DNA from: an uncultured Gammaproteobacteria bacterium
GTDB taxonomy: Bacteria; Patescibacteriota; Patescibacteriia; Magasanikbacterales; UBA922
DNA length: 64,000 nucleotides
Direction of reading: 5' to 3'
Assembly (NCBI GenBank): GCA_964418775.1
Contig: CAYQNA010000005.1
Span: forward strand, 3,066 to 67,065
Shown: positions 3,834-18,294 of the stretch, piece after piece
Layout of the letters: each line of letters starts with the position of its first letter
How positions within the stretch are numbered: position 1 is the stretch's first letter
Translations under genes and position numbers: made by a program
The notes under the pieces: generated by a model
The model's input: only the letters and a program-made list of their open reading frames with translations
Told to the model about the DNA's origin: nothing
Database searches by the model: none

Positions 3834-5666
3834 ATGTGCGGCATTATTGCATATGTGGGGAATGAGCAGGCGCTGCCGATTTTGGTACGGGGACTCCGCC
3901 GTTTGGAGTATCGCGGCTATGACAGTGCGGGTGTGGCTGTGGCCGAGCGCGGTGAATTGCAGCGCGTGCGGGCCGTTGGGAAAATTGATAATTTGTCCGC
4001 AGCTGTAAAAGAGGTGAATGTGACTGGTACGATTGGGATTGCGCATACGCGTTGGGCCACGCATGGCGGTGTGACTCAAGAAAATGCACACCCACACGCA
4101 GCTCTGGGCGGCAAGTTGATGATTGTTCACAACGGAATTATCGAGAATTACCGCGAATTGCGTCAGGCTTTGGAAAAAGAAAATCCAGCGCTTGAATTTA
4201 CGTCGCAGACCGATACCGAAGTGCTCGCGCATTTGATTGGCAAGCATTATCAGGGTGATTTGCGCATGGCGGTGGAAACCGCGCTTACGCATGTGCGGGG
4301 CACCTATGGTGTGGTCGCGATGCACGCGGACCATCCTGATCAATTGGTGGCGGCGCGGTTGGGAAGTCCGCTGGTGATTGGAATTAAAGATGGTGAATAC
4401 TTTTTGGCCAGTGACGCGACGCCGATTTTGGCTTACACCAACAAGGTGATTTTTTTGAACGATGGTGAGGTGGCCGATGTGCGCCGCAGTGGTTTGAATA
4501 TCTATACGATTCGCGACGAAAAAGTTGCCAAGCATGTGGAGGAAATTTCGTGGGACGAGACGCAGGCCGAAAAACAGGGCTTTCCACACTTCATGCTCAA
4601 GGAAATTTTTGACCAGCCCAATGTTTTGCAGGATGCAATTCGCGGCCGTTATAATTTGGAAGACGGAACCGCGCGTTTGGGTGGGCTCAACATGACCGAG
4701 GAGCAAATGCGCCGCGTGAATCGCGTGATATTTTTGGCGTGCGGCACAGCGTCATATGCGGGCCTGGTTGGAAAATATGCGTTTGAGCGTTTGGCTGGAA
4801 TTCCAGCCGAGGTTGAGGTAAGTAGTGAGTTCCGTTATCGCGATCCGGTAATTGACGAAAATACACTCGTGTTTGCAGTGTCACAATCAGGCGAAACTGC
4901 GGATACACTGGCAGCGGTACGCGAAGCCAAGCGTCGCGGGGCCTTTGTGCGCGGGATTGTAAATGCGATCGGCTCCACGATTGCGCGCGAAACCGATGGT
5001 GGTACATACATTCATGCTGGCCCAGAGCTGGCTGTGGCCTCGACCAAAGCCTACACTAACATGTCCGTGGTTATGATGTTGTACGCCCTGCAATTTGGGC
5101 GTTCGCGCCGCGTGTCAGTGGCCACAGGCCAGCGTTTGTTGCAAGCACTCGAGCAGGTGCCGCAAAAAATGAGTGAGATTTTGGCGCAGAGCGATACGAT
5201 CAAAACCATGGCCGAAGAATTAGTGAAATACAAAAATTGTTTTTTCTTGGGTCGGGGCATCAATTTCCCAATTGCACTCGAAGGTGCGTTAAAATTAAAA
5301 GAAATTTCGTACATTCACGCCGAGGCCTATCCAGGTGGCGAAATGAAGCATGGTCCAATCGCCTTGTTAGCGCCTGAATTTCCCGTTGTCGCCATCATGA
5401 CCAAGGATCAACTGTACGATAAAATGCGTAGCAACGTGGAGGAGGTTCGGGCGCGCAAAGCCCCGGTTTTTATGGTCGCCACGCATGGTGATGAATCAGC
5501 GCGCGAACTAGCCGAACACGTCATGTTTGTGCCCGAAACCATGGAGCTCTTGCAACCGCTCGTTACAACCTCGGCCCTGCAGCTCTTTGCGTATCACTGC
5601 GCCGTCGCTCTTGGCCGCGATGTTGATCGGCCGCGCAATTTAGCCAAGAGTGTAACCGTTGAATAA
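3834..5666 (+). CDS. glmS: Glutamine--fructose-6-phosphate aminotransferase
   Basis: 610 aa; N-terminal MCGIIAYVG (Ntn Cys), two SIS domains, C-terminal VE ending. Confidence 0.95.
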   Translation: MCGIIAYVGNEQALPILVRGLRRLEYRGYDSAGVAVAERGELQRVRAVGKIDNLSAAVKEVNVTGTIGIAHTRWATHGGVTQENAHPHAALGGKLMIVHNGIIENYRELRQALEKENPALEFTSQTDTEVLAHLIGKHYQGDLRMAVETALTHVRGTYGVVAMHADHPDQLVAARLGSPLVIGIKDGEYFLASDATPILAYTNKVIFLNDGEVADVRRSGLNIYTIRDEKVAKHVEEISWDETQAEKQGFPHFMLKEIFDQPNVLQDAIRGRYNLEDGTARLGGLNMTEEQMRRVNRVIFLACGTASYAGLVGKYAFERLAGIPAEVEVSSEFRYRDPVIDENTLVFAVSQSGETADTLAAVREAKRRGAFVRGIVNAIGSTIARETDGGTYIHAGPELAVASTKAYTNMSVVMMLYALQFGRSRRVSVATGQRLLQALEQVPQKMSEILAQSDTIKTMAEELVKYKNCFFLGRGINFPIALEGALKLKEISYIHAEAYPGGEMKHGPIALLAPEFPVVAIMTKDQLYDKMRSNVEEVRARKAPVFMVATHGDESARELAEHVMFVPETMELLQPLVTTSALQLFAYHCAVALGRDVDRPRNLAKSVTVE

Positions 5667-6639
5667 TATGAAAAAAATAGTTGTTATCGGCGGCGGGACC
5701 GGCACAGTGGCGGTGCTATCGGGCCTAAAACAATTCAATGATTATCAACTAAGCGTGATTGTAAGCATGACTGACGATGGTGGTAGCAATGCGGTCGTGC
5801 GTGATGAATTTGGCTTGTTGCCATTGTCTGACGTGCGCAAATCAATTATTGCGTTGGCCGAAAATGACAGCCAGTTGCTGCGCGAATTGTTTACGTATCG
5901 ATTTTCCAAGGGTGACGGACTGTCAGGCCACACGCTCGGTAACTTAATGATGATGGCAGCCGCAGATATTAGCGGCTCCGAGGAAACCGCGATTAAACGT
6001 TTATCAGTGCTGTTTAATGTTAAGGGACAAGTAATTCCCGTCACGCTTGAACAAACGCGTTTGGTGGCCGAGTACGCTTCGGGTGCACGGGTTGAGGGTG
6101 AGCATTTAATTGATGAACCAGAGGTAGATCCAGGACGCATTAAAAATTTATCACTTTCGGTTGCAGTCAACGCAAACCCCGCTGCACTCAAGGCGATTGC
6201 CGAAGCAGATGTGGTAATTATTGGCCCGGGTGACTTGTATACTAGTACGCTTGCTAACATTATTGTGCCTGGCGTTGCTGCCGCAATTCAGAATAGTCGT
6301 GCCCAGGTTATTTTTGTGAATAACTTAATGACCAAACGTGGTCAAACGCAGGGCATGAGTGCGCGGGATTTTGTGCAAGAGATCACTGCCTATGTTGGCC
6401 GCACGCCCGATGTGACTGTGCTCCACAATGGTGATTTTCCGGACGCAATTTTGCAAAAATATATGGTGCGGGGCGAGTATCCGATCGTCGATGATTTGGC
6501 CGCTAATCCTCACGTTGTGCGCACAGATGTCGCTAGCGATACTGAAACCAGGCCAGATTCGGGCGATACACTCGTGCGCAGTTTGATTCGCCATGATGCA
6601 AATAAATTGGCCGCCGCCCTTCGAAAAATTATCAATTAA
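5659..6639 (+). CDS. YvcK/CofD-like gluconeogenesis factor (UPF0052)
   Basis: 326 aa; KIVVIGGGTGTxxxLSGLK N-terminus characteristic of YvcK/CofD family. Confidence 0.8.
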   Translation: MNNMKKIVVIGGGTGTVAVLSGLKQFNDYQLSVIVSMTDDGGSNAVVRDEFGLLPLSDVRKSIIALAENDSQLLRELFTYRFSKGDGLSGHTLGNLMMMAAADISGSEETAIKRLSVLFNVKGQVIPVTLEQTRLVAEYASGARVEGEHLIDEPEVDPGRIKNLSLSVAVNANPAALKAIAEADVVIIGPGDLYTSTLANIIVPGVAAAIQNSRAQVIFVNNLMTKRGQTQGMSARDFVQEITAYVGRTPDVTVLHNGDFPDAILQKYMVRGEYPIVDDLAANPHVVRTDVASDTETRPDSGDTLVRSLIRHDANKLAAALRKIIN

Positions 6640-6642
6640 AAC

Positions 6643-6667
6643 AAAAAGCCCTCGGGAGGGCCTTTTG
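6643..6667. terminator. Bidirectional rho-independent terminator
   Basis: gccctc/gagggc hairpin flanked by A-run and T-run on both strands. Confidence 0.55.
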
Positions 6668-6746
6668 TGGACCGAGGGGGAATCGAACCCCAAAACCTAG
6701 AGTGGTAATTCTGGTTATGTCACCAGACACACTCGGCCCTCGATCC
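6668..6746 (-). tRNA. Atypical tRNA-like gene (isotype unresolved)
   Basis: minus-strand RNA GGATCGA...GGGGTTCGATTCCCCC TCGGTCC A: 7-bp acceptor stem, canonical T-arm/T-loop (TTCGATT); central part does not fold into standard D/anticodon arms by eye; own promoter upstream and terminator downstream. Confidence 0.45.
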
Positions 6747-6796
6747 AAAAGGATTGTAGCAAAAAGGGGTTAAAGAAAATCTAAAGATTTCTCTGA

Positions 6797-6832
6797 TTTA
6801 TAAACACCGTGTGGAAAAACTGTGCAAAACAA
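6797..6832 (-). promoter_or_regulatory. Putative sigma70-like promoter for the tRNA-like gene
   Basis: on minus strand TTGCAC - 17 nt - TTATAAAT about 45 nt upstream of tRNA-like 5' end. Confidence 0.35.
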
Positions 6833-6856
6833 AAAAGCCCCTTGCGGGGTTTTTGC
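6831..6856. terminator. Bidirectional terminator (serves minus-strand TerC gene)
   Basis: gcccc ttgc ggggt hairpin with A6 upstream and T5 downstream. Confidence 0.55.
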
Positions 6857-6932
6857 TTCGAGTAGTCAGTGACCACCAGAATTACCACTCTAACTAGAGT
6901 TAGAATAACTTAAGATTTTATATTTGTCAAGC

Positions 6933-7952
6933 CTAAATCTTTTTGGGAAAAATCACTGACAGGATCAGCGAGGCGGCCAACGCTGTCATAATTACCCCAA
7001 ACGAAATGAGTGGAGCCACGTGAATCCCAAAAATACCGGCGAGCATTTTGGCCCCAATAAACAAGAGGATAAACGCAAGCCCTTTTTGCAAGTGGTGGAA
7101 TTTATGGAGCACATTTTCAAGCAAAAAGAACAAGGCCCGGAGCCCCATCACGGCGTAAATATTAGCGGTAAAGATAATAAACGGATTTTGTGTAATTGCG
7201 AACGCAGCTGGAATTGAATCAACGGCAAAGATAATATCAGTACCTTCGATAAGCAGCATCACTAAGAACAAGGTGGTAAAGTAGCGTTTATCATTTTCTT
7301 TGACCCAAAATTTACCATTGTGGTGATTCGAGGTAAAAGACAAATATTTATGAGCAAACTTTACGATGGCGTTATTTTTAAAGTCAATGTGCTCTTCTTT
7401 TTTGTCGCGGAGTAATTTGATACCAGTGTACAATAGAATTGCGCCAAAAATGTACAACACCCAACTAAACTGACTGACAATTAAACTGCCGGCGGTGATA
7501 AAAATACCCCGGAACACAATCGCCCCCAAAATACCCCAGAACAAAACTTTGTGGTGGTACTGTTCTTCTAGTTTAAAGTAACTAAAAATCAGCATGATCA
7601 CGAACAGGTTGTCGACTGACAACATTTTTTCGGTTACGTACGCACTTAGGAATTCAACCGCGTGCGTGCGGCCTTCAGCCCAGTAAACTAGGGCAGCAAA
7701 GATGAGTGAGGCGCCGACCCAAAACAGGGATTGCCACAGGGCGGATTTCGCTGATATTTTGTGCGCTTTTCGATTGAGAAAACCCAAATCCGCGATTAAA
7801 AAACCAACAATCGACAGGCCGAAGACGGCCCAGAGCCAGTCATGTGGAGTCATAAAAATATAAATAAAAAACAACCGGAGGCCGGTTGTAATTAGTAGTG
7901 GTTCATAGGCCAAGACGGTCCCAAGGGACACCGATCGTCTTTTTCTCCCCAC
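6933..7952 (-). CDS. TerC-family integral membrane protein
   Basis: 339 aa; paired SVDNLFVIMLIF and AVDSIPAAFAIT motifs typical of TerC/Alx family; start may be internal Met (codon 7851-7853). Confidence 0.8.
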   Translation of the reverse strand: MGRKRRSVSLGTVLAYEPLLITTGLRLFFIYIFMTPHDWLWAVFGLSIVGFLIADLGFLNRKAHKISAKSALWQSLFWVGASLIFAALVYWAEGRTHAVEFLSAYVTEKMLSVDNLFVIMLIFSYFKLEEQYHHKVLFWGILGAIVFRGIFITAGSLIVSQFSWVLYIFGAILLYTGIKLLRDKKEEHIDFKNNAIVKFAHKYLSFTSNHHNGKFWVKENDKRYFTTLFLVMLLIEGTDIIFAVDSIPAAFAITQNPFIIFTANIYAVMGLRALFFLLENVLHKFHHLQKGLAFILLFIGAKMLAGIFGIHVAPLISFGVIMTALAASLILSVIFPKKI

Positions 7953-12047: not shown

Positions 12048-12405
12048 CTATATGTCCGAATTTTTTTTACCACACGCAGAGATGGAAAAAAATTTAGAAC
12101 CCCCTTTGGTTGATCGGGTGGTGGGAAGCCTAAGTAGTACTCTGAAAAGTATTTTTTTAGAAAATATTAATGGACACCAGCTTAAAAAAATTTTAGCCGA
12201 ACGACTGGATTTGAATGCCCTAAAAAAGTATGTCGAACGTGCCGATGTTGAGTCTAGTGTACTCCGTGCTGAGACGGAACAGATAAGGGCAGAGGTACTA
12301 CAACACCTGCAGTCTTTTTTGGAAATCGAAGTGGAACATGCGCCAAATACGGCTAAACGTGGGTATTGGCTCTCGCGCCTGAATACAGTAAAAAATTTAT
12401 TATGA
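12031..12405 (+). CDS. Hypothetical protein (helical, charged)
   Basis: 124 aa ORF, 17-nt overlap with upstream gene; no motif. Confidence 0.35.
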   Translation: MSRYHNYMSEFFLPHAEMEKNLEPPLVDRVVGSLSSTLKSIFLENINGHQLKKILAERLDLNALKKYVERADVESSVLRAETEQIRAEVLQHLQSFLEIEVEHAPNTAKRGYWLSRLNTVKNLL

Positions 12406-13559
12406 ACCTATACGAATTTGAAGGTAAACAATTGTTTGCTAAACATGGTTTGAAAATACCCCGCGGTGTAGTGGTGCGTCGTGGCGATGATGTGGCGGCG
12501 AAGTATACTGAATTGGGAGTCGCGGAGGTGGTTGTTAAGGCGCAGGTTTTGTCGGGCAAGCGCGGGAAAAATAATGGCATTAAATTTTGCAACTCAGTTG
12601 CATCGGTAGTGGAGGCCTGTGAGGAATTGTTTGGTAATGCAATTCGGGGTCAACAAGTGGCCGCGATTTTGATTGAAGAAAAGTTGCAAATTGCCGAGGA
12701 ACATTATGTTTCGGTGACGTATGATACCAATCGACGCCAGCCAATGTTGATTTATTCCAGTGCTGGTGGGGTGGATATTGAGGACGTGCCGGCCGAAAAA
12801 ATCATGCGCGTGGATTTGAATATTCGCAGTGACAAGTTACCCGAAGCCCAGGCGGGTTGGGATTTTGCACAAAAATTGTACGCTGTCTTTAAAGCCGAGG
12901 ATGCGCGTGTGGCCGAAATTAATCCACTCGTAAAAACTACGAGTGGGGAGTGGGTCGCGGCTGATGCCAAGATTGCGTTGGATGATGATGCGTTTTACCG
13001 CCACAAAGAATGGGAAACGCTCGAACCGCGCACTATGCTGGGTCGTGCGCCAACGGAGCGCGAAGTAGCGGTGAAAAAAATTGACGAAGGCGAGAATTAT
13101 TATCGTGGTACTGCTGGTAAATATATTGAAATGGATGGCGATATTGGTTTGATTTTAAATGGTGGTGGGGCCAGCATTGCGAACATGGACGCGTTGTTAG
13201 CTGCGGGTTTGCAGCCAGCGAATTATACAGAATATTCGGGCAATCCACCACGCGAAAAGGTGTACCAGTTGGCGAAAATTGTGTTGTCAAAACCAGGTTT
13301 GCGCGGGCTCTGGATGTGTGGTGTGGTGGCAAATTTTACCAACATCAAAGACACATTCATGGGCATTGTCGATGCGCTCGACGAAATCAAACCGCAGTAT
13401 CCAATTGTGGTGCGCCGCGATGGGCCGGAAAGTGCGGAGGCCAAACAATTAATTTTGGAGTGTGCGGAACGCAACCACTTGAATCTCAAGTGGTTTGGCA
13501 AAGAAACATCCATGGCTGACACGGCGCAAGTTTTGGCCGAAATGGTTAATGCCCAATAA
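12402..13559 (+). CDS. sucC: ADP-forming acyl-CoA synthetase beta subunit (SucC family; candidate citryl-CoA synthetase large subunit)
   Basis: ATG at 12402; MNLYEFEGKQLFAKHGLKIP ATP-grasp N-terminus identical in style to SucC. Confidence 0.8.
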   Translation: MNLYEFEGKQLFAKHGLKIPRGVVVRRGDDVAAKYTELGVAEVVVKAQVLSGKRGKNNGIKFCNSVASVVEACEELFGNAIRGQQVAAILIEEKLQIAEEHYVSVTYDTNRRQPMLIYSSAGGVDIEDVPAEKIMRVDLNIRSDKLPEAQAGWDFAQKLYAVFKAEDARVAEINPLVKTTSGEWVAADAKIALDDDAFYRHKEWETLEPRTMLGRAPTEREVAVKKIDEGENYYRGTAGKYIEMDGDIGLILNGGGASIANMDALLAAGLQPANYTEYSGNPPREKVYQLAKIVLSKPGLRGLWMCGVVANFTNIKDTFMGIVDALDEIKPQYPIVVRRDGPESAEAKQLILECAERNHLNLKWFGKETSMADTAQVLAEMVNAQ

Positions 13560-13561
13560 AT

Positions 13562-14443
13562 ATGAGTATTTTGATTACTAAAGAAACCAAAGTGTTGGTG
13601 CAGGGAATTACGGGTAAGGAGGGTTTGAAGGCTGCGAAAGCCATGAGTGATTATCACACCCAGGTTTTGTGCGGCGTAACTCCAGGCAAGGGCGGACAAA
13701 TGGCCGAGCAGTGGCCAGTGTTTAATTCGATTGGCGAAGCTCGCGCACAATTTCCCGAATTGAACGCAACGGCAATTTATGTACCCCCATTTGCGGCTAA
13801 AGCCGCGATTATGGAGGCGATTGACAATAATATTTCGCTCATTAGCGTGATTGTCGAGCGCATGCCAATTCAAGACACCGCGTATTGTGTGGCGGCTGCG
13901 CAAGAAAAAGGCTTGCGCATAATTGGCCCGAGTTCATTGGGTTTTATTGTGCCTGAGGTTGGACGCATGGGCGTGGTCGGTGGTCCGGCCGTGCGCGAAA
14001 TTTTCACCCCCGGGCACATTGGCATTGTGTCGCGCAGTGGTGGTATGACAAACGAGCTTTCGTGGCAAGTCCGCCAGGCCGGCCTGGGCCAAAGCGCGGC
14101 CGTGCATGTGGGCGGCGACCTGCTCATGGGCACCACGTATGCCGATGTGTTGCGCTTATACGAAGCTGACCCGGACACGCACGCGGTGATTATTTTTGGT
14201 GAGCATGGTGGCAGTTATGAATTTGAAATTGTTGACCTCATTGAACGCAAAGAATTCACCAAACCACTCGCCATTTACATTGGCGGCAAATTCGCCAATT
14301 CATTACCCGAAGGCACCAACATTGGACATGCTGGCGCCATTGTGGAGCGTGGCAAAGGCGCGGCCGAGAAAAAAGCTGCTCTCGCGGCCGTTGGCGTGCG
14401 TGTCGCCGAGCGGGTGGAGGATTTAGTTTCGCTCGTAAAATAA
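13562..14443 (+). CDS. sucD: Acyl-CoA synthetase alpha subunit (SucD family; candidate citryl-CoA synthetase small subunit)
   Basis: 293 aa; KVLVQGITGKEG...GVTPGKGGQ CoA-binding signature, phosphohistidine region GHAGA. Confidence 0.85.
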   Translation: MSILITKETKVLVQGITGKEGLKAAKAMSDYHTQVLCGVTPGKGGQMAEQWPVFNSIGEARAQFPELNATAIYVPPFAAKAAIMEAIDNNISLISVIVERMPIQDTAYCVAAAQEKGLRIIGPSSLGFIVPEVGRMGVVGGPAVREIFTPGHIGIVSRSGGMTNELSWQVRQAGLGQSAAVHVGGDLLMGTTYADVLRLYEADPDTHAVIIFGEHGGSYEFEIVDLIERKEFTKPLAIYIGGKFANSLPEGTNIGHAGAIVERGKGAAEKKAALAAVGVRVAERVEDLVSLVK

Positions 14444-14462
14444 TTGTGATAAGGTAGAACAT

Positions 14463-15206
14463 ATGAAATTCCAAACTGCTATTACCCACATTACGCCCGC
14501 GGGCGAACGAATTCGCGGCTATGAATTGGCCGAATTAGCCCAGCAAAACAGCTTTGCCAAGTCAATTTGGTTACTTTTGCGTGGTGAGTTACCAAACCAG
14601 GCCGAGTCCAAATTGTTCAGTGCCCTTTTAACCATGGCCATTGACCATGGTCCAGGCACTGCCTCTGGGCAGGTTACGCGCATCGCTGCCTCGGCCAAAA
14701 CTTCGATTCAGGCCGCCGTGGCAGCGGGTTTGTTGGCCATGGGTGAGCGCCATATAGCAGCTTTGGAAAACGCAGCTAAGTTTTTTCTCGAGAATAAAGA
14801 CTCAGATAATGTGGCTCAATTGGTTAAAGATTTAAAAGATAAAAAAGTCCGTGTGCCTGGCTTTGGTCACGCAGTGTTAACCGAAGATAAGCGCAGTATT
14901 TTTTTGTTAAGTCTGGCGCGCGAATTGGAATTGTACGGACCGCACGCCGCATTTGCCGAAAAAGTTGGCGTAGAATTAAATGCCATTTCCAGCAAACCGT
15001 TGCCGCTTAACATTGATGGTTCAATGGCTGCGATTTTACTTGACCTTGGGTTTGCGCCGCAGGCCCTAACTGGCGTATTTATTATTGCGCGTGTGCCAGG
15101 CTTGGTGGCGCAAGCGACCGAAGAAATGACGAATGATGTCGGCTTACGTCGTTTATCCGAAGACGAAATTGAATACACTGGCCCTGCTCCACGCAAGTTG
15201 GCTTAA
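14463..15206 (+). CDS. Citrate synthase-family small protein (citryl-CoA lyase-like)
   Basis: 247 aa; VPGFGHAVL matches citrate synthase PG(Y/F)GHAVL catalytic-His motif, DHGPGTASG resembles DHEGGNVS region; lacks the N-terminal half of full-length citrate synthase. Confidence 0.7.
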   Translation: MKFQTAITHITPAGERIRGYELAELAQQNSFAKSIWLLLRGELPNQAESKLFSALLTMAIDHGPGTASGQVTRIAASAKTSIQAAVAAGLLAMGERHIAALENAAKFFLENKDSDNVAQLVKDLKDKKVRVPGFGHAVLTEDKRSIFLLSLARELELYGPHAAFAEKVGVELNAISSKPLPLNIDGSMAAILLDLGFAPQALTGVFIIARVPGLVAQATEEMTNDVGLRRLSEDEIEYTGPAPRKLA

Positions 15207-18219: not shown

Positions 18220-18221
18220 AG

Positions 18222-18294
18222 TGGGCCAGGGTGGAATTGAACCACCGACCGCGTCGTTATAAGCGACGTGCTCTAACCGCTGAGCTACTGGCCC
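18222..18294 (-). tRNA. tRNA-Ile (anticodon UAU)
   Basis: GGGCCAGTAGCTCAGCGGTTAGAGC...anticodon loop CTTATAA...GGTCGGTGGTTCAATTCCACC CTGGCCC A; body strongly Ile-like. Confidence 0.8.

What the first reader, a model, noticed from the sequence alone, without database searches (positions are those of the whole stretch)
6668..6898. Atypical tRNA-like gene whose core is duplicated, inverted, in the 3' UTR of the neighbouring TerC gene
Seen: the minus-strand RNA from 6746 to 6668 has a perfect tRNA acceptor stem, T-arm and TTCGATT loop, plus its own promoter and terminator. Its middle, 79 nt before CCA, does not form standard D and anticodon arms. The candidate anticodon hairpin TCTGGT-GACATA-ACCAGA has a 6-nt loop. 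Its central 17-28 nt (agagtggtaattctggt) reappear as a perfect inverted copy at 6876-6892. That copy lies inside the 3' UTR of the TerC mRNA, so the two transcripts share ~25 nt of complementarity. Inference: either a non-canonical tRNA or tRNA-derived sRNA that could base-pair with the terC 3' UTR, or a MITE-like inverted-repeat element that has overprinted a tRNA gene.
Basis: seen in the sequence. Interest (0 to 1): 0.6.

Follow-up and report, generated by a model that had tools for sequence, protein, structure and literature searches.

The report
Irregular alanine-type tRNA with antisense partner
Between two housekeeping genes of an uncultured Patescibacteria (CPR) bacterium lies a small, strongly conserved pair of RNA genes: an odd-shaped tRNA carrying the alanine identity mark but a non-alanine anticodon, and beside it a short RNA complementary to that tRNA's core, which probably holds it in check.

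Summary
An 18-nt perfect inverted repeat (6698-6715 / 6875-6892) links a tRNA-like gene (minus strand, 6739-6668) to a sequence just downstream of terC. The tRNA-like RNA is not a standard 7/5 tRNA. ARAGORN calls a defective tRNA-Gly(ACC), and Rfam's tRNA model misses it. It does fold into an 8/4 cloverleaf with a selenocysteine-tRNA-like D-arm, G3·U70 and A73 (alanine identity), and its 3' half is identical to phage tRNA-Ala genes. The closest known kind is the irregular 8/4 'allo-tRNAs', but it lacks their long variable arm. The block is absent from most close relatives. It is present in a lineage whose synonymous sites are saturated against the window (39-40% identity), yet the tRNA is 70/72 identical, the complementary arm 18/18, and the few changes keep RNA pairing. 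This indicates purifying selection on both partners. The complementary copy sits in the terC 3' UTR and also has its own conserved TTGACA -35 box. The arm has no other copies in the window or in the metagenome or viral collections, so a MITE is not supported. Inversion is disfavoured. Best reading: an alanine-accepting irregular tRNA controlled by a neighbouring antisense RNA. Function and expression are untested.

The parts
5668..6639 (+). Flanking gene: CofD/YvcK-family protein. It converges on the block and marks its left boundary.
   Evidence: Pfam PF01933, E = 9.8e-77. The exact product was found on other contigs.
6641..6668 (-). Terminator 1. It is bidirectional, ending both the tRNA-like gene and cofD, and starts right at the tRNA's discriminator base.
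   Evidence: Terminator scan: 12-pair stem plus T-run on the minus strand, and GCCCTCGGGAGGGC on the plus strand. The stem differs in L100 through compensatory changes.
6668..6739 (-). Irregular tRNA gene, 72 nt, CCA not encoded. Predicted 8/4 cloverleaf: acceptor GGGCCGAG/CUCGGUCC with G3·U70, A73; D-arm UGUGUC-UGGU-GACAUA; anticodon arm ACC-AGA[AUUACCAC]UCU-A-GGU; variable region UUU; T-arm GGGG-UUCGAUU-CCCC.
   Evidence: ARAGORN tRNA-Gly(acc). Rfam tRNA-Sec 29.6 bits, below its cut-off. The 8/4 cloverleaf scores -30.2 against an MFE of -30.9 kcal/mol. The 3' half is identical to 14 phage tRNA-Ala(TGC) genes. 72/72 identical in L098 and 70/72 in L100.
6698..6715 (-). Left arm of the 18-nt perfect inverted repeat. 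In the RNA it reads ACCAGAAUUACCACUCUA, which is the whole anticodon arm of the tRNA-like RNA.
   Evidence: In L100, A25 becomes G (position 6715), which turns an A-U pair into G·U, both with the partner RNA and within the tRNA's own stem.
6753..6761 (-). Candidate extended -10 promoter TGCTACAAT for the tRNA-like gene. The predicted start is near 6746, giving a leader of about 7 nt.
   Evidence: Read by eye. Conserved as TGTTACAAT in L100. Not flagged by the scan tool, which needs a -35 box.
6799..6827 (-). Candidate upstream promoter: TTGCAC, 17-nt spacer, TTTATA. The spacer contains a small palindrome, ACAC(C/G)GTGT. This stretch is more conserved than its surroundings.
   Evidence: Read by eye. 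In segment 6790-6825, 29 of 36 positions are identical in L100, and the core TTATAAACACNGTGTGGAAAAACTGTGC is nearly invariant. Not flagged by the scan tool.
6826..6857 (-). Terminator 2. It ends terC and the complementary RNA. It is a 73%-identical direct repeat of terminator 1 (6638-6667).
   Evidence: Direct repeat D1. RNAfold places a terminator hairpin here. The stem changes compensatorily in L100, GCCCC..GGGGC. The window's stem has only 4 G-C pairs, so the scan tool did not list it.
6858..6897 (-). Complementary RNA, called R' in this report: ..UUAGAGUGGUAAUUCUGGUGGUCACUGACUACUCGAA. Predicted hairpin 1 (6892-6877) has the loop GGUA. Hairpin 2 (6876-6862) is GUGGUC-ACU-GACUAC. R' lies in the terC 3' UTR and is possibly also a separate transcript of about 65-70 nt.
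   Evidence: Conserved in L100: arm 18/18, hairpin 2 plus linker 15/17. In hairpin 2 a G·U pair becomes A-U in L100. Co-folding with the tRNA gains 18.6 kcal/mol, against a mean of +1.9 for shuffled R'.
6875..6892 (-). Right arm of the 18-nt perfect inverted repeat. In the RNA it reads UAGAGUGGUAAUUCUGGU.
   Evidence: Identical in L098 and L100.
6902..6930 (-). Promoter-like site TTGACA-17-TATTCT, starting 2 nt after the terC stop codon. The predicted start is near 6895, which would make R' an independent small RNA.
   Evidence: Promoter scan, 10 of 12 matches. The -35 TTGACA is 6/6 conserved in L100, while the spacer and -10 region are only 11/23 identical. The L100 equivalent reads TTGACA-17-TAAATT.
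6933..7853 (-). Flanking gene terC (306 aa from the ATG at 7853; a GTG at 7952 is also possible). Its 3' UTR contains R'.
   Evidence: Pfam PF03741, E = 6.6e-52. The exact 306-aa product was found on another contig.

Best explanation
The roughly 260-bp block between cofD and terC is a two-gene small-RNA module.

Gene 1 encodes an irregular tRNA. It has an 8-bp acceptor stem and a 4-bp T-stem, a selenocysteine-tRNA-like D-arm and a very short variable region. It carries the alanine identity set (G3·U70, A73). Its anticodon loop does not read alanine: ACC (a glycine anticodon) in a 7-nt register, inside an 8-nt loop in the best cloverleaf.

Gene 2 (R') lies upstream on the same strand, inside the terC 3' UTR and probably also behind its own promoter. 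It arose as an inverted partial copy of gene 1, so its RNA is complementary to the tRNA's D-arm and whole anticodon arm (18 perfect pairs, about 38 nt in all). Its two hairpins mirror the tRNA's two arms. Their loops face the tRNA's loops: GGUA opposite anticodon ACC, and ACU (ACC in L100) opposite the D-loop UGGU.

Inferred mechanism: R' (or the terC mRNA tail) captures the tRNA by loop-loop contact and zips into a long duplex. That unfolds the L-shape and blocks processing, charging or decoding. This would set how much active tRNA exists.

Inferred purpose: to keep an alanine-charged tRNA that would misread non-alanine codons, or that donates alanine outside translation, under tight control.

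What is shown: the anatomy, the complementarity, the alanine-type acceptor end and selection on both partners. What is inferred: transcription, alanylation, duplex formation in the cell and the biological role.
For: - The repeat is beyond chance.
- The RNA is tRNA-like but irregular.
- The 8/4 cloverleaf is within 0.7 kcal/mol of the MFE. ARAGORN's 7/5 drawing scores only -13.6 kcal/mol.
- The 23-nt T-arm and acceptor 3' half is identical to tRNA-Ala(TGC) in 14 phage tRNA arrays. G3·U70 and A73 are present.
- The 3' end follows the same A73 + C, no-CCA pattern as the window's genuine tRNAs.
- Selection: against L100, four-fold degenerate sites of cofD and terC are 39-40% identical. Yet the tRNA is 70/72, the R' arm 18/18, R' hairpin 2 is 15/17 and the R' -35 box 6/6. 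Interleaved segments have decayed (11/23 and 4/9), and terminator stems changed compensatorily. This mosaic argues against recent transfer of the block.
- All three substitutions in the pairing zone are compatible with RNA pairing: A-U to G·U, U·G to C-G, and G·U to A-U in R' hairpin 2.
- Co-folding gains 18.6 kcal/mol, against +1.9 ± 2.5 for shuffled R'.
- L125 has lost the tRNA and keeps only a decayed R' remnant, as expected if R' is useful only together with the tRNA.
[quoted passage not shown] Ser-accepting allo-tRNAs with leucine anticodons arrested growth and killed E. coli when induced. The genes often lie near toxin-antitoxin systems, and a regulatory non-coding role has been suggested for them (PMC5389517).
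Against: - There are no expression data. Both promoters of the tRNA gene are by-eye calls, and terminator 2 was not flagged by the scan tool.
- Only two independent lineages carry the block (window/L081/L098, and L100), so covariation rests on three substitutions, none of them a full double compensatory change.
- Pairing beyond the 18-mer adds only modest energy: 14 of 300 partial shuffles do as well.
- The anticodon stem is bulged or mismatched and the loop is 8 nt in the best cloverleaf. The conserved nucleotides A14 and A21 are missing, so ribosomal decoding is doubtful.
- The competing non-cloverleaf fold is marginally more stable.
- The block is missing from most close relatives (L099, L101, L122, L123, L124), so it is dispensable.
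- No partner protein such as a Fem-type transferase, MprF or a toxin gene lies within 0-23 kb.
Confidence: 0.55

Rival explanations
1. The tRNA-like RNA is the regulator and terC is the target. It acts as a tRNA-derived small RNA that pairs with the terC 3' UTR and changes the stability or 3' processing of the terC mRNA.
For: The complementary sequence is certainly part of the terC 3' UTR, since it lies between the stop codon at 6933 and terminator 2. Both partners are conserved. The block always sits next to terC.
Against: Relatives with 84-90% identical TerC manage with a 15-40-nt 3' UTR and no block. A TTGACA -35 box is conserved just after the stop codon, which suggests R' is made independently of terC. 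Nothing links a TerC-family membrane protein to an alanine-type tRNA. A regulator RNA would not need an intact alanine-identity acceptor end and T-arm, yet these are invariant.
Confidence: 0.2
2. The module is an insulator acting in cis. When terC transcription reads through terminator 2 into the tRNA gene, R' in the same transcript folds back on the tRNA's 5' two-thirds. This prevents maturation, so active tRNA arises only from its own, possibly repressor-controlled, promoter.
For: All parts are on one strand in the order R', terminator 2, promoter, tRNA. Terminator 2 is weak in the window, with 4 G-C pairs, and was not flagged. A conserved palindrome sits in the upstream promoter's spacer.
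Against: This needs no separate promoter for R', yet a -35 box is conserved there. It explains control, not function. No read-through data exist.
Confidence: 0.1
3. The inverted repeats are DNA recombination sites of an invertible promoter switch. Flipping the 159-bp segment would separate the tRNA's 5' part from its 3' part and point the promoter(s) into the end of terC.
For: 18-bp perfect inverted repeats flank a 159-bp segment that holds the candidate promoters. One MAG of the same species has a 100-N gap exactly here (L001).
Against: All four assemblies that cover the block have the same orientation. No recombinase gene lies within 0-23 kb. In L100 the arms are not homogenised: position 6715 changed to a base that is a mismatch in DNA but a G·U pair in RNA. 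The imperfect complementarity beyond the arms also keeps RNA-type wobble pairs.
Confidence: 0.05
4. The block is functionless debris: a decaying tRNA-Ala pseudogene plus a fragment left by an inverted duplication or by the passage of a mobile element.
For: The anticodon stem is defective in the standard register. Distribution among relatives is patchy, with evident losses. L125 shows that the region can decay.
Against: The tRNA is 97% identical and the arm 100% identical across a divergence where synonymous sites are at 39-40% identity, while neighbouring non-functional segments have randomised. There are no other copies in the window or in the metagenome or viral collections.
Confidence: 0.05

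Closest known systems
Allo-tRNAs, the irregular bacterial tRNAs with an 8/4 or 9/3 acceptor branch (Mukai et al. 2017, Nucleic Acids Res 45:2776; PMC5389517)
   Same: A 12-bp acceptor branch split 8 + 4. A tRNA-Sec-like D-arm with a long stem and tetraloop. An anticodon unrelated to the amino-acid identity. A minority of allo-tRNAs carry G3:U70 and insert alanine. They were picked up as sub-threshold tRNA-Sec hits, as this one was. The authors suggested they may act as toxic or regulatory RNAs.
   Different: No long variable arm (3 nt here). A73 rather than G73 or U73. A bulged anticodon stem with an 8-nt loop. The host is a Patescibacteria/CPR bacterium, whereas allo-tRNAs were reported from Clostridia, Proteobacteria and Acidobacteria. 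No dedicated complementary RNA partner was described for allo-tRNAs in the two papers read here (PMC5389517, PMC7609411).
Canonical bacterial and phage tRNA-Ala(UGC)
   Same: G3·U70 and A73. The 23-nt T-arm plus acceptor 3' strand is identical to 14 phage tRNA-Ala genes.
   Different: 8/4 instead of 7/5. A Sec-like D-arm. No UGC/GGC anticodon. Below the Rfam tRNA threshold.
Mistranslating tRNA-Ala anticodon variants, for example human tRNA-Ala(ACC) (reviewed in PMC11415595)
   Same: Alanine identity combined with the glycine anticodon ACC. AlaRS ignores the anticodon.
   Different: Those are otherwise normal 7/5 tRNAs in eukaryotes with no antisense partner. Here the body is irregular and decoding is untested.
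Antisense-RNA control by loop-loop kissing (CopA/CopT, RNAI/RNAII) and RNA-only toxin-antitoxin pairs (type VIII, such as CreT/CreA). Named from my own knowledge, not tested here.
   Same: A small structured RNA whose hairpin loops are complementary to the loops of its target, encoded right next to it. This is a possible RNA-versus-RNA neutralisation.
   Different: The target here is a tRNA-shaped RNA, not an mRNA or replication primer. Complementarity arises from an inverted partial duplication on the same strand, not from overlapping convergent transcription. Toxicity is not shown.
T-box leader Specifier Loop
   Same: An RNA hairpin loop presents a codon-like triplet (GGU in the loop GGUA) to the tRNA anticodon (ACC).
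   Different: There is no T-box architecture, no antiterminator with a UGGN bulge and no downstream regulated gene. Pairing extends to 18 or more nt and would unfold the tRNA rather than dock on it. There is no Rfam T-box hit.

Membership tests
Canonical elongator tRNA (Rfam RF00005) | Reaches the family's gathering score of 29 bits | tested here: not met
   Not among the gathering-threshold hits, although the three other tRNAs of the window were found. In the permissive search the best hit in the clan is tRNA-Sec at 29.6 bits.
Canonical elongator tRNA (Rfam RF00005) | 7-bp acceptor and 5-bp T-stem, a 5-bp anticodon stem with a 7-nt loop, and the conserved nucleotides U8, A14 and A21 | tested here: not met
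   The ARAGORN 7/5 drawing has a U·C mismatch in the T-stem and A·A and A·C mismatches in the anticodon stem, and scores -13.6 kcal/mol. Position 8 is G in that register, and the D-loop lacks A14 and A21.
tRNA-Ala (AlaRS substrate) | G3·U70 wobble pair in the acceptor stem, with discriminator A73 | tested here: met
   Read directly from the sequence and from the ARAGORN drawing. The 3' half is identical to 14 tRNA-Ala(TGC) genes. Actual charging was not tested.
tRNA-Ala (AlaRS substrate) | An anticodon that reads GCN codons | tested here: not met
   The loop is UUACCAC or AUUACCAC, with no NGC triplet in anticodon position.
Allo-tRNA (8/4 or 9/3) | 12-bp acceptor branch split 8/4 or 9/3 | tested here: met
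   The MFE fold and all near-optimal folds have an 8-bp acceptor stem and a 4-bp T-stem. This is a prediction only.
Allo-tRNA (8/4 or 9/3) | tRNA-Sec-like D-arm with a long stem and a tetraloop | tested here: met
   UGUGUC-UGGU-GACAUA aligns to the D-arm of the tRNA-Sec model with high posterior probability and is part of the -30.2 kcal/mol cloverleaf.
Allo-tRNA (8/4 or 9/3) | Long variable arm, the SerRS identity element | tested here: not met
   Only UUU (UCU in L100) lies between the anticodon arm and the T-arm.
tRNA-Sec (Rfam RF01852) | Gathering score of 47 bits, UCA anticodon and a long variable arm | tested here: not met
   29.6 bits. The variable arm is deleted in the alignment and the anticodon is not UCA.
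MITE or other dispersed inverted-repeat element | Multiple copies in the genome or in related genomes | tested here: not met
   There are two arms only in the 64-kb window. All 20 metagenome hits to the 17-mer are unrelated in their flanks. There are no viral hits. A covariance-model search of 701 kb of related loci found no further copies. The rest of this genome could not be searched.
Invertible promoter switch (inverton) | Both orientations occur, and a cognate recombinase is present | tested here: inconclusive
   All four assemblies have the same orientation, and there is no recombinase within 0-23 kb. Raw reads and the rest of the genome were not available.
T-box riboswitch | Stem I with a Specifier Loop plus an antiterminator that pairs with NCCA, upstream of a regulated gene | tested here: not met
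   No Rfam T-box match even at E <= 10. R' is followed by a terminator and then a promoter, not by a regulated coding sequence.

The most novel reading that the evidence does not exclude
This could be an RNA-only 'dangerous tRNA and its keeper' module. An alanine-charged 8/4 tRNA would misread glycine GGU codons, or a four-base codon through its 8-nt loop. It would normally be neutralised by a neighbouring antisense RNA that presents the matching codon in a hairpin loop. That would amount to a tRNA-based toxin-antitoxin or regulated-mistranslation switch in a CPR bacterium. The evidence also leaves open a non-ribosomal alanine donor gated by antisense RNA.
Probability: 0.2. Interest if true: 0.8.

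Novelty: new variant of a known kind. Interest (0 to 1): 0.62.

Why it matters
Irregular tRNAs whose amino-acid identity and anticodon disagree are rare, and it is unclear how cells tolerate or use them. This one comes with a built-in, co-conserved complementary RNA, which suggests a direct way to switch such a tRNA on and off. If confirmed, it would extend 8/4-type tRNAs to the Patescibacteria, which have small genomes and a reduced translation apparatus. It would also add 'antisense control of a tRNA' to the known ways of regulating decoding. The pair is compact, about 260 bp, so it could be tested in E. coli and possibly used as a switchable suppressor in synthetic biology.

Tried and rejected
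- MITE or dispersed repeat: I searched the arm in the window, in viral contigs and in metagenome contigs. Only chance hits with unrelated flanks turned up.
- Phage origin: a distant blastn of the whole block against 50,697 phage records found nothing. Scans for the D-arm core and for an 8-bp-acceptor pattern gave only unrelated coding sequence or no hits. The only viral matches are to the generic tRNA-Ala 3' half.
- Paralogues: a covariance model of the 8/4 cloverleaf, run over the window and 88 related loci, found only ordinary tRNAs at 27 bits or less.
- Known RNA families: nothing reaches threshold. The sub-threshold hits (rnk leader, Atu_C8, sar, ctRNA and others) are driven by the terminators and are noise.
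- Integration-site remnant (att duplication in a tRNA gene): rejected. The duplicated part is the 5' two-thirds of the tRNA, it is inverted, it lies only 159 nt away, and there is no integrase or foreign DNA.
- L002 and L003, the closest species representatives in the genome collection, are uninformative. Their gene next to terC is only 32-33% identical to this cofD.
- L001, a MAG with 98% identical TerC, has a 100-N gap over the block.
- L082 diverges right after cofD but is a 2x-coverage contig and may be chimeric.
- The first two exact-protein look-ups failed because I used the wrong start codons.
Full report
**Setting.** The window comes from an uncultured Patescibacteria (CPR) bacterium close to Candidatus Magasanikbacteria. 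This rests on the record titles of the nearest TerC loci. The finding sits in a housekeeping neighbourhood: glmS (3834-5666, +), a CofD/YvcK-family gene (5668-6639, +), then terC on the minus strand (6933-7853), followed by GNAT, methyltransferase and pseudouridine synthase genes. cofD and terC converge. The 293-bp gap between them holds everything discussed here.

**The observation.**
- The inverted repeat is real: 18 perfect nucleotides at 6698-6715 and 6875-6892, 159 nt apart. None of 100 dinucleotide shuffles gave two matches even with three mismatches allowed.
- ARAGORN calls a 'tRNA-Gly(acc)' at 6739-6667 on the minus strand.
- At gathering thresholds Rfam finds the window's three normal tRNAs but not this one. 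In a permissive search its best hit is tRNA-Sec at 29.6 bits, below that family's cut-off of 47.
- An intrinsic terminator follows the gene directly.
The mature 5' end is at 6739. Position 6746 is roughly where a by-eye extended -10 promoter (TGCTACAAT, 6761-6753) would start transcription. CCA is not encoded, which is also true of the window's genuine tRNAs; these share the same 'A73 then C' 3' flank.

**What the RNA is.**
- ARAGORN's standard 7/5 drawing is poor. It has a U·C mismatch in the T-stem and A·A and A·C mismatches in the anticodon stem, and it scores -13.6 kcal/mol.
- The minimum-free-energy fold and all near-optimal folds have an 8-bp acceptor stem (GGGCCGAG/CUCGGUCC) and a 4-bp T-stem (GGGG-UUCGAUU-CCCC).
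- Within that frame a full cloverleaf scores -30.2 kcal/mol, against the MFE of -30.9. Its D-arm is UGUGUC-UGGU-GACAUA (six pairs and a tetraloop, as in tRNA-Sec). Its anticodon arm is ACC-AGA[AUUACCAC]UCU-A-GGU (six pairs, one bulge, an 8-nt loop). Its variable region is UUU.
The two folds compete.
- The acceptor stem carries G3·U70 and the discriminator is A73. This is the alanine identity set that AlaRS reads without using the anticodon (established knowledge; restated in PMC5389517 and PMC11415595).
- The 23-nt T-arm plus acceptor 3' strand occurs exactly in 14 viral contigs. In every one it belongs to a tRNA-Ala(TGC) gene inside a phage tRNA array.
- The RNA is therefore an alanine-type acceptor and T domain joined to a Sec-like D-arm and a non-alanine anticodon loop.

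**Closest known kind.** These are the 'allo-tRNAs' of Mukai et al. (PMC5389517).
- Shared features: an 8/4 or 9/3 acceptor branch, a Sec-like D-arm, anticodons unrelated to identity, and some members with G3:U70 that insert alanine in E. coli.
- In that study, two Ser-accepting allo-tRNAs with leucine anticodons caused growth arrest and cell death when induced in E. coli.
- The genes often lie near toxin-antitoxin systems, and the authors suggested a regulatory non-coding role.
- This RNA lacks their long variable arm, has A73, and comes from a phylum not listed for allo-tRNAs in that paper or in the 2020 review (PMC7609411).
- I therefore class it as allo-tRNA-like, not as a member.

**The complementary copy (R').**
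- Read on the plus strand, 6858-6892 resembles the tRNA's 5' two-thirds beyond the 18-mer (CGAGT..GTGAC..ACCAGAATTACCACTCTA). It looks like an inverted partial duplicate of the tRNA gene.
- On the transcribed minus strand it is antisense to the tRNA's D-arm and entire anticodon arm.
- It lies between the terC stop codon (6933) and terminator 2 (6826-6857), so it is part of the terC 3' UTR.
- The promoter scan also found TTGACA-17-TATTCT at 6930-6902, immediately after the stop codon. That would start a separate RNA of about 65-70 nt near 6895.
- R' is predicted to form two hairpins that mirror the tRNA's two arms. Hairpin 1 has the loop GGUA, opposite anticodon ACC. Hairpin 2 has the loop ACU, opposite the D-loop UGGU.
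- Co-folding R' with the tRNA gains 18.6 kcal/mol, while shuffled R' gives +1.9 ± 2.5. The pairing outside the 18-mer contributes about 6 kcal/mol, and 14 of 300 partial shuffles match that.

**Comparative evidence.** I collected the same locus from relatives through exact-protein look-ups.
- L081 is identical to the window.
- L098 (CofD 97% identical) has an essentially identical block: the tRNA and R' are unchanged, with four base differences elsewhere. L100 (CofD 85% identical) carries the whole block in the same arrangement.
- Against L100, four-fold degenerate sites of cofD and terC are only 39-40% identical, so neutral positions are saturated.
- Within the block, conservation against L100 is a mosaic:

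| Segment | Identical positions |
|---|---|
| tRNA | 70/72 |
| R' 18-mer arm | 18/18 |
| R' hairpin 2 plus linker | 15/17 |
| R' -35 box | 6/6 |
| R' promoter spacer and -10 | 11/23 |
| 6893-6901 | 4/9 |

- Both terminator stems changed compensatorily, and the core of the tRNA's upstream promoter is nearly invariant.
- This mosaic is what long vertical divergence under purifying selection produces. It is not what a recent transfer would leave.
- The three substitutions inside the pairing zone all fit RNA pairing. Position 6715 changes A-U to G·U, both in the tRNA's own stem and in the duplex. The loop of R' hairpin 2 changes U·G to C-G against the D-loop. Position 6874 changes G·U to A-U in R' hairpin 2.
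- The first of these is a mismatch at the DNA level, which counts against a DNA-recombination role for the repeat.

**Distribution.**
- The block is missing from L099, L101, L122, L123 and L124. These have a single shared terminator, or even overlapping gene ends, between cofD and terC.
- On the CofD tree the carriers (window/L098, and L100) fall in one clade together with the non-carrier L099. The TerC tree places L100 next to L124 and L125. The simplest history is one gain followed by repeated loss.
- L125 looks like an intermediate. After the terC stop it has a decayed -35 box (TTGGCA), a recognisable but degraded R' hairpin 2 in the same orientation (23/30 matches) and one terminator, with no tRNA.
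- That is the product expected from a deletion between the two similar terminators (direct repeat D1) followed by decay of an R' that no longer has a partner.

**What it is not.**
- It is not a dispersed element. The arm has no other copy in the window. The 20 metagenome hits to its 17-mer core have unrelated flanks. Viral collections have none.
- A covariance model found no paralogues in 701 kb of related loci.
- Nothing phage-like matches the block.
- Inversion cannot be excluded without reads. Against it: all four assemblies agree in orientation, no recombinase is nearby, and the arms are not homogenised in L100.

**Mechanism, with shown and inferred steps.**
- Shown: the anatomy, the alanine-type acceptor end, the complementarity and selection on both RNAs.
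- Inferred: both are transcribed. AlaRS charges the tRNA. R', as a separate RNA or as the terC mRNA tail, binds it through loop-loop contacts and zips into a duplex of 18 to about 38 bp that destroys the L-shape. This would limit the amount of active tRNA.
- Why a cell would keep such a pair is speculative. The tRNA might misread glycine or four-base codons as alanine and be harmful unless restrained, which would make the pair a toxin-antitoxin-like or regulated-mistranslation device. Alternatively it might donate alanine outside translation.
- Rival readings remain possible and are scored separately: regulation of terC by the tRNA, cis insulation against read-through, and a DNA switch.

**Verdict.** This is a real, selectively maintained and unusual small-RNA pair. 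It is a new variant of the irregular 8/4 tRNA kind, with a co-conserved antisense partner that was not described for such tRNAs in the papers read here. Expression and function are untested, and only two independent lineages carry it.

Noticed in passing
window 18221-18294 (-); also L009 73-147: A tRNA-Ile with a UAU anticodon, scoring 73.4 bits against Rfam tRNA. AUA codons would then be read by a UAU tRNA rather than by the usual lysidine-modified CAU tRNA. A related Magasanikbacteria locus has the same arrangement next to tRNA-Arg(CCG).
   Followed up: no
window 12366-15206 (+): Three adjacent genes have ATP-grasp/citrate-binding, CoA-binding/CoA-ligase and citrate-synthase C-terminal domains. 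Together they look like a split ATP-citrate lyase or a citryl-CoA synthetase plus lyase, which is unexpected in a reduced CPR genome.
   Followed up: no
L001 5026-5124: The GTDB representative MAG with 98% identical TerC (probably the same species) has a 100-N run that replaces the whole tRNA/R' block and the 3' 580 nt of cofD. The inverted repeat may break short-read assembly here. The same MAG has an extra 288-aa ORF between cofD and glmS.
   Followed up: partly
L082 1452-1582: A 1.6-kb, 2x-coverage ENA contig encodes an identical CofD. It departs from the window at position 6647, inside terminator 1, and continues as unrelated AT-rich sequence. It is either a chimeric assembly or a strain with a different junction.
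   Followed up: partly
window 6805-6815 (within the spacer of the upstream tRNA promoter): A small palindrome, ACAC(C/G)GTGT, lies inside a stretch (TTATAAACACNGTGTGGAAAAACTGTGC) that is nearly invariant between the window and L100. It is more conserved than a promoter alone would need, so it may be a repressor binding site.
   Followed up: no
L002 2159-3094 and L003 2376-3341: In the two next-closest species representatives, the gene between terC and glmS is only 32-33% identical to this window's CofD. The flanking terC and glmS are clear orthologues, so the gene appears to have been replaced at a conserved position.
   Followed up: partly
window 6600-6667 compared with L098 2540-2607: L098 is essentially identical to the window from the tRNA gene onward (4 base differences in about 290 aligned positions). 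It differs at 10 of the last 40 cofD positions and 8 of 28 terminator-1 positions. This suggests a recombination breakpoint at terminator 1.
   Followed up: no
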